A stretch of DNA of 33,542 nucleotides from Opitutia bacterium (GCA_025363025.1 JANYEO010000035.1:1-33542); one strand, 5' to 3'. Shown: positions 11,286 through 21,858, numbered from the stretch's first letter. Notes: generated by a model not told the origin, from the sequence alone. Numbers and translations: made by a program.

Positions 11286-11819
11286 TTAAAACATCGCCCA
11301 CACAGGTTCTATTTCTACAAATTGAATCTCTGCCGAACCCTTAAAACTCTTTAAATAAACGTCCATTTCTTGCTCGAAAACACTCATACGATAAGTAACC
11401 CCACCTCCACTTTCCTTCGGCCTCCTTGTTCCCATGCTATACAACCCATAGGCGGATTCATCAAATAAAAGAAAGTCTACAGCCACGGTACCACCTACTT
11501 CAATGGTAGGGCTCCCAAGCCCCAGGTTCAGGCCAAAGGCCGCATGGGCTTCATCCACCTCTATCCCACAAAAAGGCAGCTGGACGCTTCTTTCATGCGG
11601 CAAAAGCCACACTGGCACTTCATAACGCCGCTCTATCACCCTCCCATTTGCGGAGAAAGCATAATGCACCCGAAGGCCCATGAGCGTCCAATAAAGCTTT
11701 GTAAAGGCCTCGGGGCTCAACCCCTTTAGGCCTTCATCTCCCGTAGCTGCCTTTACCATAAGGCTGAGCGGTAAACCATACTCACTTACCGGATATAAAA
11801 AATGAGGGTACGTTTCCAT
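11286..11819 (-). CDS. Hypothetical protein, last gene of the phage-like operon
   Basis: 177-aa intact ORF that begins 6 nt after the preceding stop. No recognisable motif. Confidence 0.45.
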   Translation of the reverse strand: METYPHFLYPVSEYGLPLSLMVKAATGDEGLKGLSPEAFTKLYWTLMGLRVHYAFSANGRVIERRYEVPVWLLPHERSVQLPFCGIEVDEAHAAFGLNLGLGSPTIEVGGTVAVDFLLFDESAYGLYSMGTRRPKESGGGVTYRMSVFEQEMDVYLKSFKGSAEIQFVEIEPVWAMF

Positions 11820-11824
11820 CTTAG

Positions 11825-13561
11825 TTAGCGTGCATAAGGCTTACTGGCGAGCACCAAGCGCTTAAGCAAAACGCCATTATGACACACCGTTTCCTCTCGC
11901 AACTCTACCTGTGCATTTTCTGGCAAAGCCGCCATATCAAGGACAATAGCCCCTGTTTTTTCCGTTTCGCTCAATACCAAACGCTTCATACGTCCTACCC
12001 CTCGGTCCGTATTCTCTAAACGCGCATGAGTCGCCTGCTTAATCGATTGACGAGAAGAAGACCGCCCCAGCGCTCGAAAAGGCGCCCTTTGAACCGGCCT
12101 GCGCTCGCGGTTTGCCCGCAAAAGCTCTACTAAATCATCCGCACCCAAGAGGCCTACCGGGCCAAATTTTAGTACCACATCCCCCGTCTCTACCTGGTAA
12201 GTTACAGACTGTATTAAAGCCCCCATCGCTTCCCATTCAGGCTTACCCCCCACCATACAAAGCGTCTTCCCCAAATAGGATTGATTCAAGTATTCACTCC
12301 CGCACAGGGCCACCTCCCCCTCATAAGACAGTGTCGCTACAGCTTCGTACAAAGCTTTGGCTAAGCCTAGCGGAGGAGCCTCCTCCATACTATCAGTCAT
12401 CGCATACGTGTACATTTTTTGAATCGCAGAAGTCGCCTGAAGCCTCACCGCTACTGGGTGCTCAACCGCAGTGCCCTCTAATGTTTCATACGCTAAAGTA
12501 GCCCGCACAACCTCTTCTTCTACCTCACAATTCATCCACTCTGCAATTGCACCCCCTACCAGCTCATCCGGTAGCATGCTTTGGCGCTGTGCATGCTTAA
12601 CCACGAGGGATCCTTCCTTTATAGCCCCCAAGCTCGGCAAATGACGGGCCCACCAATCGCCTGACTCTGGCAAAATGGGGGCCGTTTTAACCGCTTGCTT
12701 AAGCTCATGCGCCCGCAAGCCTGCAAGCTCAAGGGTCAAGACAATGGCCTTGGGCTGCTCTGCTCTTTCCCCTTCTGGGTAAGCCTCAATCTCAGTCGTA
12801 GCCCATGTATGGCTACCTACACGGTGGACTTTTTCATACTTAAGGATCACAGCGGGGGCCACACGGTCATGCCGCGGGGTAATGGCAAAACGCTTCAGCT
12901 TATCTTCCGTCACATGAAGGCTTAAAGGCATAGCACTGGCCCTCTGCCTAATATTTAAAACAGGATACCCCTCTGCATGATAATCAAAACTAACCACTGC
13001 ATCCGGAGCAAAACGGAGCACCCTTGACAAAGCTTCAGCACACGATACATCGCGCAGCTCATCCATTGGCAAGGGGTAATCCGATTCAATAGTACCTATA
13101 ACAAAGGGCGCTCCACAGCGTATGGCATACTCTGCAATATCAGCTATTGCCCCAGCGCTACGTATCGACTGCCCTGCTGTATTTTGGCCTAGGACAACCC
13201 GCCCTTTATAAACAGGGGCCCATTCTGTAGCCTCTGCCTCATAAGACGTCGCCTCCTGCCAAACTTGTTGGTAAACTGTATTCTCTAAATACCAAAAAGG
13301 CCCTTTCACCTCATAACTCATACGAGACCCAGTCGCCAGTGTGTAGCCAGGGGTGCGCGTTACAAGGCCTTCAAACCAGCGCACCCCGCCGTTCCAAATA
13401 GACAAAGGGGCCTCAGCTGCAAAAGCCTCTATCTCATCTCCTATTTGATTAAACGTTACCGTATCTTCCCCCGGGTTCATTACAGAGCGTTTGAGGTTTG
13501 TAATCCCCCATTCAGCTAGAGTTTTTTCAACCCCTTGATATTTTAGAGTCCAGTTTTCCAT
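11825..13561 (-). CDS. Phage-like structural protein, possible tail hub or distal tail protein
   Basis: 578 aa and the largest ORF of the operon. The N-terminus WTLKYQGVEKTLAEWGITNLKRSVMNPGEDTVTFNQ...WFEGLVTRTP...YEVKGPFWYLENTVY loosely resembles gpD/gp27/VgrG-type hub N-termini. The assignment is tentative. Confidence 0.45.
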   Translation of the reverse strand: MENWTLKYQGVEKTLAEWGITNLKRSVMNPGEDTVTFNQIGDEIEAFAAEAPLSIWNGGVRWFEGLVTRTPGYTLATGSRMSYEVKGPFWYLENTVYQQVWQEATSYEAEATEWAPVYKGRVVLGQNTAGQSIRSAGAIADIAEYAIRCGAPFVIGTIESDYPLPMDELRDVSCAEALSRVLRFAPDAVVSFDYHAEGYPVLNIRQRASAMPLSLHVTEDKLKRFAITPRHDRVAPAVILKYEKVHRVGSHTWATTEIEAYPEGERAEQPKAIVLTLELAGLRAHELKQAVKTAPILPESGDWWARHLPSLGAIKEGSLVVKHAQRQSMLPDELVGGAIAEWMNCEVEEEVVRATLAYETLEGTAVEHPVAVRLQATSAIQKMYTYAMTDSMEEAPPLGLAKALYEAVATLSYEGEVALCGSEYLNQSYLGKTLCMVGGKPEWEAMGALIQSVTYQVETGDVVLKFGPVGLLGADDLVELLRANRERRPVQRAPFRALGRSSSRQSIKQATHARLENTDRGVGRMKRLVLSETEKTGAIVLDMAALPENAQVELREETVCHNGVLLKRLVLASKPYAR

Positions 13562-13582
13562 GATAATATTACTGTATGAATT

Positions 13583-13780
13583 TTAAGTATTTCTCAGATT
13601 ACGCAAACGCCCATTATGGCTCTTCATTTCCTCTTCTATCCCACGAATGATTTCTTCGTATTCGCGCATGCGGCGCTCACGTGCGGCTTCGCGTTCCAAA
13701 TTTTCTTGGAATACGCGTCGCATATGACGTTCTTCAAGCTCCAACATTTCTTCTTCGCTGGCACAGTCGTAAAGCTTCAT
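13583..13780 (-). CDS. Small highly charged coiled-coil protein
   Basis: 65 aa, EER/REE-rich. Its ATG overlaps the upstream stop (ATGA at 13777-13780), which suggests translational coupling. Confidence 0.4.
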   Translation of the reverse strand: MKLYDCASEEEMLELEERHMRRVFQENLEREAARERRMREYEEIIRGIEEEMKSHNGRLRNLRNT

Positions 13781-20572: not shown

Positions 20573-20878
20573 TCAGACGAGGGCTTGGGTTCTTAAATAA
20601 TCTTCTCCGGAAGCGGTGAGTTTGTAACGGGGCTCGGCTGGGTTAAGCAAAGGACAGAGGGCTTCGATCAGGGATTTCTCCTTCAAATAGGTAAGCTCCC
20701 GCAGTAAGTCTAACGCGGTTAAGCTGTGCCCTGCGATATGAAGACCTTGAGACAAGGTTGTGGAGGGAAGGCTAGCTGGGTAAGCGGCGCTAAGCTGAAG
20801 AAGCAGTGCGTGACGCAAGAGTAATAAATGACTGGAAGGAGTGGAAGATGGAGCGTGTGGTGTGATGAATGAAGACAT
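20573..20878 (-). CDS. Small winged-helix-like protein
   Basis: 101 aa. The C-terminal pattern LDLLRELTYLKEKSLIEAL.....PRYKLTASGEDYL resembles a wHTH recognition helix plus wing. Confidence 0.35.
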   Translation of the reverse strand: MSSFITPHAPSSTPSSHLLLLRHALLLQLSAAYPASLPSTTLSQGLHIAGHSLTALDLLRELTYLKEKSLIEALCPLLNPAEPRYKLTASGEDYLRTQALV

Positions 20879-20950
20879 GATAGAATAGAATGTTGATATT
20901 AAGGTTAGTTTTGGTGTTAGATGAAAGATGAGGGAGGAATGAGGCCGTTA

Positions 20951-21316
20951 TTAGGGGCGCTCGACAAGACGATCTAACTTAGTTGAAACTTCGGTTAGGC
21001 GCTGATTTAAGAGGGCTTGACCGGCTAGAGCGGCTGAGAGCTCCCCCCGGTGGCTAGTTATAAAACGATTGATACGATCGTTATCTAAGCGGATATCCGC
21101 ACGGAGGCGCTCGACCTCTGCCCTACTCTCTCTAAGCGCTTCCGTTAGGTGTTGGCGGAGCTTCTCGTGCTCTGTACGGGAGGCGTAAGTAATTTTGGGA
21201 TCAGGAGACTCTCGGTAATATTCGCGAATGCGCAGGAGAAGGACGTAGCCGCCGAGAAGACCGATAAAGACTAAGACTGCGGTGCCGAGATTGTGAGCGT
21301 GTTCGAATGAAAACAT
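20951..21316 (-). CDS. N-terminal TM + coiled-coil protein (i-spanin-like architecture)
   Basis: From the ATG at 21316 the product reads MFSFEHAHNLGTAVLVFIGLLGGYVLLLRI, followed by a Glu/Arg/Leu-rich helical region. Confidence 0.4.
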   Translation of the reverse strand: MFSFEHAHNLGTAVLVFIGLLGGYVLLLRIREYYRESPDPKITYASRTEHEKLRQHLTEALRESRAEVERLRADIRLDNDRINRFITSHRGELSAALAGQALLNQRLTEVSTKLDRLVERP

Positions 21317-21366
21317 AGGTAGGATGGTGTTAGGATGATGGAATGGGGGACGGCACATGGGGCTTG

Positions 21367-21858
21367 TTAACGGTTCTCCATAATAGAGCCTCCGAAGTAT
21401 AGGCCGATAATGGCGGAGAGGATGTGCGTATCTAGAGGGGTGATCACAAGGCCCTTGAGGGCTACCCAGCGAAGGTGCTCCGTCGCACTGGTAAAAAACA
21501 AGAAGCCTTCGGAGACTTCTGAATGGGAAATGTGGATCGGCACCTCTGGCCAGAAGATGGCGACGATTTTTGGCACGACGATGATGGAGAAGGCGGACAT
21601 GAGGGCTATCGTCCTACGCGTCCACTGAACCCCTGGGGCATCGAAGGCGCGAGCGGCTGTAGCATAATCATTCCGCATTTGCATGGCTTGAAGGGCGAGT
21701 TGATTAGCCTCCCGCCGGGCATCGATATTGCGGGACCACGCCTTCATCACCCCGGCAAAGAAGGAAGAGGAAAATAAGGTTAACAGTTCTGGAGGGAGAG
21801 CGAGCATGAGGGCATAAAGCGATAAAGGGTGACTAAGCGATGATGGATGGATGGCCAT
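21367..21858 (-). CDS. Multi-pass membrane protein, possibly a 3-TM holin of the GTA-holin type
   Basis: 163 aa. The segment NIDARREANQLALQAMQMRNDYATAARAFDAPGVQWTRRTIALMSAFSIIVVPKI, followed by hydrophobic segments, recalls the GTA_holin_3TM layout. The match is weak. Confidence 0.3.
   Translation of the reverse strand: MAIHPSSLSHPLSLYALMLALPPELLTLFSSSFFAGVMKAWSRNIDARREANQLALQAMQMRNDYATAARAFDAPGVQWTRRTIALMSAFSIIVVPKIVAIFWPEVPIHISHSEVSEGFLFFTSATEHLRWVALKGLVITPLDTHILSAIIGLYFGGSIMENR

What the first reader, a model, noticed from the sequence alone, without database searches (positions are those of the whole stretch)
11286..21858. Tail-poor Mu-type capsid and packaging operon among effector-like genes: prophage remnant, capsid-forming satellite, or domesticated GTA-like particle?
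Fifteen co-directional minus-strand ORFs are packed tightly, mostly 2-45 nt apart and never more than about 120 nt, with one ATGA overlap at 13777-13780. I can assign a holin-like protein, a TM plus coiled-coil protein, a small wHTH protein, a putative TerS, TerL, a DUF935/Mu gp29 portal, a Mu gpI-type protease, a DUF2190 protein, a major capsid protein and a DUF1320/Mu gp36 adaptor. After the adaptor only about 3.4 kb remain, encoding proteins of 149, 137, 65, 578 and 177 aa. None of these looks like a sheath, tail tube, tape measure or baseplate wedge. No integrase, transposase, repressor or replication gene is visible anywhere in the window, and I see no tRNA or att-like repeat. The left flank is a secreted UIM protein plus prfB. 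The right flank is a strong terminator and an OTU effector-like gene. Every ORF except terL is intact, which argues against simple random decay. A complete head with connectors, a minimal or absent tail and no mobility genes is the pattern known for gene-transfer agents and capsid-forming phage satellites. I am not aware of either being described in a T3SS-bearing, Chlamydia-like or PVC-type host-associated background.
Basis: partly seen in the sequence, partly recalled or inferred. Interest (0 to 1): 0.75.

Follow-up and report, generated by a model that had tools for sequence, protein, structure and literature searches.

The report
Domesticated Mu-type phage particle genes
This is a 10.6-kb set of phage Mu-type head genes plus a drastically shortened tail that Verrucomicrobia-type bacteria have inherited vertically and kept under selection, so it is probably a gene-transfer-agent-like particle rather than a decaying prophage, though no one has yet shown that it makes particles.

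Summary
The ORF layout is real. There are 15 co-directional minus-strand genes at 11286-21858, and terL is split by one missing base in an A-run. There is no integrase, tRNA or att repeat, and host genes lie on both sides.

The "tail-poor" reading is only half right:
- The 578-aa protein folds as a Mu gp44/gp27/VgrG-type tail hub.
- The 137-aa protein has a tail-tube-like fold, from a low-confidence model.
- The 65-aa coiled coil looks like the C-terminal stump of a tape measure protein.

Together these would give a minimal stub tail, not a missing one.

The same module occurs in dozens of Opitutales and Puniceicoccales genomes (Verrucomicrobiota). It always sits between housekeeping genes and never next to mobility genes. 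Its divergence tracks that of the flanking genes: dS is equal, and amino-acid identity falls in parallel from 94% to 60%. dN/dS is 0.02-0.25, including in the window's own lineage. That argues against a random remnant and a mobile satellite, and fits domestication.

Gene transfer is inferred, not shown. One marine relative fuses a polymorphic toxin to the last tail gene, so a weapon role is a live rival.

This would be a new variant of a known kind. Interest 0.65.

The parts
21859..22217 (-). AT-rich intergenic region upstream of the first gene; presumed promoter or regulatory region
   Evidence: Lies between the hairpin terminator at 22218-22251 and the g01 start codon. No promoter match above chance, so the role is inferred from position only.
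21367..21858 (-). g01, 163-aa hydrophobic protein, possibly involved in lysis or membrane function
   Evidence: Matches phrog_38283 (unknown function) at 2e-12. Conserved as the first gene in L001, L024, L031 and L066. The 'holin' label is not verified.
20951..21358 (-). g02, 135-aa protein with an N-terminal hydrophobic segment and a coiled coil
   Evidence: Read from the sequence. Only a weak PHROG hit, 0.005. Present in L001 and L048.
20573..20878 (-). g03, 101-aa small protein of unknown function
   Evidence: Matches phrog_436 at 1.2e-6. Conserved upstream of TerS in many loci.
20068..20451 (-). Small terminase subunit, Mu gp27-like
   Evidence: PF11985 at 3.4e-5, 24.7 bits, below the cut-off of 28. 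The same weak hit appears in the L001 and L078 homologues.
18687..20065 (-). Large terminase subunit, split by a -1 frame change caused by one missing A in the run at 19123-19126
   Evidence: Terminase_6N and Terminase_6C fall in two ORFs. Restoring A5 gives LKNTPFAEQ, which matches LQNSPFYEQ in the intact 460-aa L001 TerL.
17453..18657 (-). Portal protein, Mu gp29 family. The ORF is open to 18805, but the likely start is the ATG at 18657.
   Evidence: PF06074 at 1.3e-56. The L001 homologue is 399 aa.
16766..17434 (-). Head maturation protease, Mu gpI N-terminal part. It lacks the C-terminal roughly 150 aa found in the 370-aa relatives.
   Evidence: PF10123 at 1.4e-10. Length variation of 205-383 aa among relatives.
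16196..16720 (-). Capsid cement or decoration protein (PF09956, formerly DUF2190)
   Evidence: 12 of 18 family members match, best 1.3e-9; the window copy scores 0.015.
15212..16159 (-). Major capsid protein
   Evidence: PHROG major head protein at 5e-5. The family has 854 members at E<1e-10, and one is named 'Phage major capsid protein E' by UniRef. It also occupies the position of Mu gene T.
14654..15130 (-). g10, head-tail adaptor, Mu gp36-like
   Evidence: PF07030 at 0.006. The Ruficoccus homologue scores 0.0011. PHROG head-tail adaptor at 0.001.
14202..14651 (-). g11, 149-aa presumed neck protein (stopper or terminator), assigned by position only
   Evidence: Conserved between g10 and g12. 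No Pfam, PDB or NCBIfam hit. dN/dS 0.088 against L077.
13777..14190 (-). g12, 137-aa tail-tube-fold protein
   Evidence: AlphaFold2 model with pLDDT 61. In the PDB search, nearly all listed hits are tail, injection-system or Hcp tube-type assemblies, including the RcGTA virion and siphophage R4C, with E from 6e-4. In the viral library most top hits are unnamed; the function-named ones are mostly tube or major tail proteins. It precedes the tape measure gene in L069-L073.
13583..13780 (-). g13, 65-aa coiled coil ending in RNLRNT; probable miniaturised tape measure protein
   Evidence: A 47-76-aa homologue ending in NLRN lies directly upstream of the hub gene in most loci of this type. The 840-aa tape measure protein at that position in L069-L073 ends in VKNLRNQR. 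hhalign aligns C-end to C-end, P=0.008.
11825..13561 (-). g14, 578-aa tail or baseplate hub (Mu gp44 / T4 gp27 / VgrG / Tal fold)
   Evidence: AlphaFold2 pLDDT 76.7. Foldseek hits to 3cdd, 1wru, 9ki1_G, 7aef_q and VgrG at E 3e-12 to 1e-9, TM up to 0.64.
11286..11819 (-). g15, 177-aa last gene; presumed distal or delivered tail protein
   Evidence: Always the last gene wherever it is present. In UBA1116 and a Tara contig its homologue carries a C-terminal PT-TG polymorphic toxin. No fold information.
11189..11207 (-). Weak hairpin followed by a T-rich tail, downstream of g15; a possible operon terminator
   Evidence: Pattern scan only. The number of such hits in the region is not above chance.

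Best explanation
The cluster is a domesticated, chromosomally fixed module derived from a Mu-like tailed phage. Verrucomicrobiota of the class Opitutia inherit it vertically.

**What it encodes (by homology)**
- A DNA-packaging capsid: gp27-like TerS, TerL, gp29-type portal, gpI-type protease, PF09956 cement protein and a major capsid protein.
- A neck: gp36-like adaptor g10 plus g11.
- A very short non-contractile tail. This consists of a tube-fold protein (g12), a 65-aa remnant of the tape measure protein (g13), a trimeric gp44/gp27-type hub (g14) and a distal protein (g15).

**How it most likely works (inferred)**
- It has no integration, transposition, replication or lysogeny genes, and it stays at one locus while co-diverging with the host. 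It therefore cannot propagate as a virus.
- The most likely function is production of particles that package cellular DNA by the headful mechanism and deliver it to related cells. That would make it a gene transfer agent of independent, Mu-type origin.
- Release would use the membrane proteins g01 and g02 together with lysis genes encoded elsewhere.

**Shown versus inferred**
- Shown: gene identities, hub fold, synteny, fixed locus, purifying selection.
- Inferred: stub-tail architecture, particle formation, packaging of host DNA, transfer.
For: **Mu-type head genes and Mu-like gene order**
-.

**Tail parts**
- Hub fold for g14: E 3e-12 to the MuSo2 and Mu gp44 structures.
- Tube-class hits for g12.
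- g13 shares position, coiled-coil character and the C-terminal NLRN motif with an 840-aa tape measure protein identified by PHROG.

**Distribution**
- The module occurs in 51 loci from species-representative genomes. Nearly all are Verrucomicrobiota.
- At least 22 of those loci carry head and tail genes on one contig.
- The scanned neighbours are housekeeping genes: accB/accC, a ComM-like gene, an acyltransferase and an exonuclease. PRPP synthetase downstream was identified from its sequence only.
- No integrase appeared in any locus I scanned.

**Selection and co-divergence**
- dS of cluster genes equals dS of flanking host genes: 0.3-0.6, and about 1.0-1.3 in deeper pairs.
- dN/dS is 0.02-0.25.
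- Median amino-acid identity of cluster and flank genes falls together from 94% to 60%.
- In the window's own lineage, g10-g14 have dN/dS 0.07-0.12 and dS 0.31-0.44. prfB has 0.046 and 0.43. The close relative L076 also has the cluster next to prfB.
Against: - No experimental evidence exists for particles, packaged DNA or transfer.
- terL in this window is frameshifted. If the frameshift is real, this copy cannot package DNA.
- No endolysin or regulator is visible.
- g11 and g15 have no assignable fold.
- The g12 model is of low confidence, pLDDT 61.
- The link between g13 and the tape measure protein rests on a short motif plus position. An HMM of the g13 family did not retrieve the tape measure protein.
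- Purifying selection shows that the genes function, but not what the function is.
- A PT-TG toxin fused to g15 in one lineage points to a possible weapon role.
- Ruficoccus amylovorans keeps the head genes but lacks g11-g15.
Confidence: 0.5

Rival explanations
1. The particle is mainly a delivery weapon, not a gene-transfer device. In this view a capsid-bearing or capsid-derived particle uses its hub and tip (g14, g15) to penetrate neighbouring cells and deliver a toxin or effector. This would work like a tailocin or a VgrG-PAAR spike. DNA packaging would be secondary or vestigial.
For: - g14 has the VgrG/gp27 hub fold.
- In marine Opitutia UBA1116 and a Tara contig, the g15 homologue carries a PT-TG pre-toxin domain (E 3e-13).
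- Its C-terminus is variable: the two alleles are 99% identical up to residue 424 and unrelated after that.
- Different small ORFs follow each allele, and one contig has an extra orphan cassette.
- The window cluster sits among type III secretion and effector-like genes.
Against: - The window's g15 is only the 177-aa core and has no toxin domain.
- Terminase, portal and capsid genes are under selection as strong as the tail genes. That is unexpected if DNA packaging were dispensable.
- Known tailocins have lost their head genes.
Confidence: 0.15
2. The cluster is the structural module of a still-infectious or helper-dependent element. Its early genes (transposase, repressor, replication) or helper functions would lie elsewhere in the genome or in a co-resident phage.
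For: - Related contigs in the viral collection reach 33-41 kb and have normal tape measure genes. These look like real siphophages.
- I could inspect only 10-12 kb on each side of any locus.
Against: - The cluster sits at the same locus, between the same housekeeping genes, in different species, and its dS equals that of the flanks.
- No mobility gene appears within 10 kb in any scanned locus.
- Each genome bin yielded one locus of this type in the genome scan.
- There are no att repeats.
Confidence: 0.15
3. It is an ordinary defective prophage remnant with no present function, retained by chance. This is how the 'Ca. Marcellius' study interpreted a very similar region.
For: - terL is broken in this window.
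- Many Mu genes are missing: MuF, sheath, baseplate wedges and fibres.
- PMC6920513 describes two Mu-like genes plus a terminase in a Verrucomicrobia genome as a degraded prophage.
Against: - dN/dS is 0.02-0.25 in every gene across several species pairs and in the window lineage.
- ORFs remain intact over divergences with dS above 1.
- Gene order is conserved across dozens of species.
Confidence: 0.1

Closest known systems
RcGTA-type gene transfer agents of Alphaproteobacteria (Rhodobacter capsulatus; virion structure PDB 6tba)
   Same: - About 15 co-directional head-to-tail genes.
- No integrase, replication or lysogeny genes.
- Fixed chromosomal locus, vertical inheritance and purifying selection.
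- A shortened non-contractile tail ending in a hub.
- The RcGTA virion and neck entries (6tba, 6toa) are among the structural hits of g12.
   Different: - The head genes are of Mu type: PF06074 portal, gpI protease, gp27 TerS and gp36 adaptor.
- The tape measure is reduced to about 50-65 aa.
- No recognisable distal tail protein or large tail-tip ('megatron'-type) protein.
- A different phylum.
- Particle production and DNA transfer are untested.
Phage Mu and Mu-like prophages (FluMu, MuSo2, D3112/B3-type siphophages)
   Same: - Colinear late-gene order: TerS, TerL, portal, protease, capsid protein, gp36, tube, tape measure position, hub.
- Pfam membership for TerS, portal, protease and adaptor.
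- The hub fold matches Mu gp44 and the MuSo2 43-kDa protein.
   Different: - No MuA/MuB transposase, repressor, Mor/C activators or endolysin.
- No MuF (gp30), sheath, baseplate wedges or fibres.
- Portal identity to any deposited phage is at most 25.5%.
- Immobile at a fixed locus.
Bartonella gene transfer agent with run-off replication (Berglund et al. 2009, PMC2697382)
   Same: - A phage-derived particle module in a host-associated bacterium, close to secretion-system and host-interaction genes.
- An origin-type GC-skew switch lies inside several copies of the cluster. This is the kind of trace a local origin might leave, which is speculative.
   Different: - No helicase or other replication gene in or beside the cluster.
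- The skew pattern is not universal.
- No amplification data.
Capsid-forming phage-inducible chromosomal islands (cf-PICIs)
   Same: Encode their own capsid, portal, protease, connector and terminase genes in about 10-15 kb.
   Different: - As I understand it, cf-PICIs carry integrase and replication genes, are mobile and lack tail genes.
- This cluster has none of the mobility genes.
- It does encode a hub and a tube-fold protein.
'Defective prophage' reported in 'Ca. Marcellius' (Verrucomicrobia), PMC6920513
   Same: The paper describes two Mu-like phage proteins plus a large terminase. These are flanked by short hypothetical genes whose best hits are in Verrucomicrobia. This is very probably the same element.
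   Different: That paper read it as a degraded remnant. The comparative data here show conservation and purifying selection.

Membership tests
Gene transfer agent (GTA / viriform) | Phage-derived structural gene cluster without replication, integration or lysogeny genes | tested here: met
   Pfam, PHROG and NCBIfam scans of cluster and flanking ORFs found no such genes. Relatives likewise have none.
Gene transfer agent (GTA / viriform) | Vertical inheritance at a fixed locus under purifying selection | tested here: met
   dS equals that of flanking genes and dN/dS is 0.02-0.25. Cluster and flank identities fall together.
Gene transfer agent (GTA / viriform) | Particles package random host DNA in pieces too small to carry the whole cluster | not testable with these tools
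   Needs particle purification and sequencing. Capsid size cannot be read from the sequence.
Gene transfer agent (GTA / viriform) | Transfer of packaged DNA to recipient cells | not testable with these tools
   Requires an experiment.
Gene transfer agent (GTA / viriform) | A functional packaging motor | tested here: inconclusive
   TerL is intact in L001 and other relatives. The window copy has a 1-nt deletion in an A-run. Two metagenome scans for the site found nothing.
Mu-like transposable phage | MuA/MuB-type transposase and repressor/early region | tested here: not met
   None among the window ORFs scanned or within 10 kb in relatives.
Mu-like transposable phage | Mu-type head module (gp27, gp28, gp29, gpI, gp36) | tested here: met
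   The gene order matches Mu.
Mu-like transposable phage | Complete tail (sheath or long tube, full tape measure, baseplate, fibres) | tested here: not met
   Only a tube-fold protein, a 65-aa tape measure remnant, a hub and g15 are present.
Capsid-forming PICI satellite | Integrase plus replication module; mobile | tested here: not met
   No such genes, no att repeats, and a fixed locus.
Capsid-forming PICI satellite | No tail genes, because tails are taken from a helper phage | tested here: not met
   g14 is a tail hub and g12 has a tube-like fold.
Siphovirus-type tail tip | gp27-like hub (Tal) preceded by a tape measure protein | tested here: inconclusive
   The hub is met. The preceding gene is only 65 aa. 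It shares the C-terminal NLRN motif with a true tape measure protein, but its family HMM does not retrieve that protein.

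The most novel reading that the evidence does not exclude
This would be an ancient viriform or gene transfer agent found across the class, and possibly across the phylum, in Verrucomicrobiota. It arose independently from a Mu-like siphophage. Its tail was miniaturised by cutting the tape measure protein down to about 50-65 residues, leaving one tube-fold protein plus a hub.

Lineages have since customised it:
- Tail-fibre-like genes in termite-gut Puniceicoccales.
- Polymorphic toxins fused to the tip protein in marine Opitutia.
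- In this host-associated genome, a position beside type III secretion and effector genes. From there it could mobilise host-interaction genes, as the Bartonella agent does.
Probability: 0.35. Interest if true: 0.85.

Novelty: new variant of a known kind. Interest (0 to 1): 0.65.

Why it matters
Experimentally studied gene transfer agents are few and, to my knowledge, come from only a few bacterial and archaeal lineages. I found no paper describing one in Verrucomicrobiota in the library searched. The phylum is abundant in gut, termite, soil, marine and symbiotic habitats.

If this module makes DNA-carrying particles, three things follow:
- It would add an independent origin of such agents, from a Mu-type phage.
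- It would give a natural example of tail shortening through tape measure truncation.
- It would offer a route for horizontal exchange, including of secretion-system and effector genes, in bacteria that are hard to manipulate genetically.

It also shows that regions annotated as "degraded prophage" in this phylum deserve a second look. The toxin-tipped variant hints at a new way of delivering polymorphic toxins.

Tried and rejected
- **Exact look-up.** The window's 578-aa protein is not on record, so I could not retrieve the rest of the source genome.
- **Profile searches of g12, g11 and g15 against PDB sequences.** Nothing found.
- **Family scans of g11 and g15.** Pfam run on every family member, plus NCBIfam and PHROGs, gave nothing.
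- **hhalign against single Mu proteins.** I compared g11, g12, g14 and g15 profiles with Mu gp37, M, gp44 and gp45. None was significant, even for g14 against gp44, where the fold match is clear. Sequence methods therefore have no power at this distance.
- **HMM of the g13 family.** It did not retrieve the 840-aa tape measure protein. Only the C-terminal motif aligns.
- **Promoter and terminator scans.** Not above chance.
- **Rfam.** No hit.
- **Metagenome DNA scans for the terL frameshift site.** Two scans found nothing, so I cannot tell a sequencing error from a real mutation.
- **Programmed frameshifting in terL.** Considered and rejected. The site (CTT AAA ATA) is not a slippery heptamer, and an A4 run is too short for transcriptional slippage. 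This rests on general knowledge.
- **Literature searches.** No paper describes a gene transfer agent in Verrucomicrobia.
- **GC-skew switch as evidence for a local replication origin.** Not adopted. The pattern appears in only about ten loci and is absent in others.

Full report
**1. What is in the window**

The minus strand between 11286 and 21858 carries 15 tightly packed genes. They appear as 16 ORFs because terL is split.

Pfam gives:
- Portal_Mu at 1.3e-56.
- Terminase_6N and Terminase_6C, in two ORFs.
- Mu-like_Pro at 1.4e-10.
- A sub-threshold Mu gp27 small terminase hit.
- A weak gp36 adaptor hit.

PHROGs weakly supports the capsid protein and the adaptor. The 174-aa protein belongs to PF09956, the cement protein family formerly called DUF2190. 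This holds at family level: 12 of 18 homologues match, and the window copy scores 0.015.

There is no tRNA, no Rfam hit and no att-like repeat.

A perfect hairpin terminator at 22218-22251 separates the cluster from the upstream UIM/OTU-like gene. The flanks are ordinary chromosome:
- transketolase, prfB and an outer-membrane barrel protein;
- type III secretion genes (YscD-like, needle protein, HrpB1-type TPR protein);
- two flagellin genes and an HDOD protein.

terL is interrupted by one missing A in the run at 19123-19126. Restoring it yields LKNTPFAEQAEVL, which matches the intact L001 protein. I could not tell whether this is a sequencing error or a mutation.

**2. The distal genes are a tail, only a very small one**

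*g14, 578 aa.* The AlphaFold2 model has pLDDT 76.7. It matches baseplate and tail hubs at E 3e-12 to 1e-9:
- the MuSo2 43-kDa tail protein (3cdd);
- Mu gp44 (1wru, 9ki1_G);
- hubs of extracellular contractile injection systems;
- VgrG;
- tail-associated lysin-type hubs of siphophages.

*g12, 137 aa.* The model is of low confidence, pLDDT 61. Its hits are nevertheless coherent. In the PDB search, nearly all listed hits are tail, injection-system or Hcp tube-type assemblies, including the RcGTA virion and siphophage R4C. In the viral library most top hits are unnamed, and the function-named ones are mostly tube or major tail proteins such as TP901-1 MTP and T4 gp19.

*g13, 65 aa.*
- It is a coiled coil ending in RNLRNT.
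- A 47-76-aa counterpart ending in NLRN lies immediately upstream of the hub gene in most loci of this type.
- In the more distant viral contigs L069-L073, the gene at that position is an 840-aa protein with PHROG and Pfam tape measure hits.
- That protein ends in VKNLRNQR.
- hhalign aligns the two C-termini end to end, P=0.008.

I therefore read g13 as a tape measure cut down to its hub-binding end. This is an inference, and a g13 HMM alone does not retrieve the long protein.

*g11 and g15.* They remain without any fold or family assignment.

*Gene order.* It is colinear with the late region of Mu, minus lysis genes, MuF, sheath, chaperone, gp43, wedges and fibres.

**3. Relatives**

The hub family is rare in the 5.8-billion-protein collection, with 11 hits. 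A pattern scan of species-representative genomes nevertheless found 51 loci:
- Almost all are in Verrucomicrobiota: Puniceicoccales from termite guts, Opitutales, Methylacidiphilales and Chthoniobacterales.
- One is in Kiritimatiellae, another PVC lineage.
- The exceptions are one Steroidobacteraceae contig, one Bryobacteraceae contig and one unclassified bacterium.

At least 22 loci carry the head and tail genes in the same order on one contig. L001 has all 15 genes with matching sizes and an intact TerL.

The genes bordering the cluster that I scanned are housekeeping genes: accB/accC, a ComM-like gene, an acyltransferase and an exonuclease. PRPP synthetase downstream of g15 was recognised from its sequence only. 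No integrase or transposase adjoins the cluster in any scanned locus.

A cultured species, Ruficoccus amylovorans, has the head genes, the adaptor and a fibre-like protein, but no g11-g15.

**4. Selection and inheritance**

| Comparison | Cluster genes | Flanking host genes |
|---|---|---|
| Species pairs sharing flanks, dS | 0.3-0.6 (about 1.0-1.3 in deeper pairs) | same range |
| Same pairs, dN/dS | 0.02-0.25 | about 0.03-0.18 (annotated housekeeping genes) |
| Median amino-acid identity across 40-odd locus pairs | falls from ~94% to ~60% | falls in step |
| Window vs L076/L077, dS | 0.31-0.44 (g10-g14) | 0.43 (prfB) |
| Window vs L076/L077, dN/dS | 0.07-0.12 (g10-g14), 0.23 (g15) | 0.046 (prfB) |

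L076 and L077 are contigs from a close relative, about 91% amino-acid identity. L076 also has the cluster next to prfB.

A decaying remnant or a recently inserted mobile element would not give this pattern. A domesticated element would.

**5. Interpretation**

The best-supported reading is a phage-derived particle module maintained by the host. It would make a Mu-type DNA-packaging head joined to a stub tail of tube-fold protein, tape measure remnant, hub and tip.

It has no means of replication or movement, yet its terminase, portal and capsid genes are under selection. A role like that of a gene transfer agent is therefore the most economical explanation. That role is inferred.

A serious rival comes from marine Opitutia UBA1116 and a Tara contig:
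- The g15 homologue is extended by a PT-TG pre-toxin domain.
- Its C-terminal tip is variable.
- Candidate immunity genes follow it, and there is an orphan cassette.

This is the signature of a polymorphic toxin (PT-TG: PMC13483458). It suggests that g15 is a delivered tip protein and that some lineages use the particle as a weapon.

The capsid-forming satellite idea fails on integrase, mobility and the presence of tail genes.

**6. Prior knowledge**

I found no description of a gene transfer agent in Verrucomicrobia. A study of 'Ca. Marcellius' noted two Mu-like genes plus a terminase flanked by Verrucomicrobia-specific hypothetical genes. It called the region a degraded prophage (PMC6920513). 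That is very likely the same element.

**7. Verdict**

- The domestication hypothesis is supported by comparative genomics. The function is untested.
- I rate it a new variant of a known kind, with interest 0.65.

Noticed in passing
window ~14,000-14,300 (boundary g11/g12); also L079/L080, L001, L005, L060, L038, L050, L028: GC skew, including third-codon-position skew, changes sign inside the co-oriented cluster. Read from g01 to g15, it goes from negative over the head genes and upstream flank to strongly positive over g12-g15 and about 10 kb of downstream host genes. This is the pattern expected at a replication origin. It recurs in about ten loci with different flanks, but it is absent in L013, L029, L078 and the Methylacidiphilales loci.
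   Followed up: partly
L079 14335-15864 and L080 11094-14841 (Opitutia UBA1116 / Tara contig): The g15 homologue is 509 or 539 aa and carries a PF14449 PT-TG pre-toxin domain. The two alleles are 99% identical to residue 424 and unrelated after that. Each is followed by a different 88-90-aa ORF, and L080 has an extra orphan PT-TG cassette. This amounts to a polymorphic toxin fused to the last tail gene.
   Followed up: partly
window 9738-11284 (UIM-motif protein gene 9837-11129): This roughly 1.5-kb segment, which encodes the secreted UIM protein, is replaced by 48 nt in the close relative L076. There, g15 lies directly next to prfB. The effector-like gene is therefore a recent gain or loss.
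   Followed up: yes
L008 7564-9243, L014, L021, L043, L012, L023 and others (between g12 and g13): Many Puniceicoccales copies carry an extra 450-600-aa tail-fibre-like gene. Some members, such as L008, contain repeats of the type SYTLPTASTNTLGGVKVG. The C-terminus is variable. The window and L001 lack this gene.
   Followed up: partly
L078 (Ruficoccus amylovorans JACHVB010000012.1) 4553-15459: This cultured species has the head module, a gp36-like adaptor and a 757-aa LamG fibre-like protein, but no g11-g15 homologues. Host genes flank it, with no integrase.
   Followed up: partly
window 16766-17434: The protease gene is 222 aa here and 205-225 aa in L001, L024, L031 and L066. It is about 270 or about 370 aa in other relatives. 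The C-terminal part, which in Mu gpI/gpZ acts as the scaffold, appears to be missing. I did not explore any consequence for capsid size.
   Followed up: no
L003/L004/L046 (hub homologue at 9011-10924 in L003): A 637-aa hub homologue sits in a different, compact phage-like element. That element has a divergent HTH_19 repressor-like gene, an HTH_17 gene and an AAA_22 protein. It may be a separate small phage or satellite family in PVC bacteria.
   Followed up: no
L032-L035, L039, L045, L052, L060, L061 (Methylacidiphilales-type loci): A second, more divergent lineage of the module sits at conserved loci in Methylacidiphilales. It has an extra roughly 300-aa gene between g11 and g12. A 134-aa gene directly upstream of a 719-aa hub has an N-terminus that looks like those of phage tail fibres; I judged this from the sequence and did not test it.
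   Followed up: partly
window 22285-23529 and 23783-29601: The right-flank protein has UIM motifs and a DGDCFYHAL motif that I read, without a test, as an OTU-type catalytic motif. Pfam supports only UIM. Next come type III secretion genes and two tandem flagellin genes. This is a notable combination for an Opitutia-type genome.
   Followed up: no
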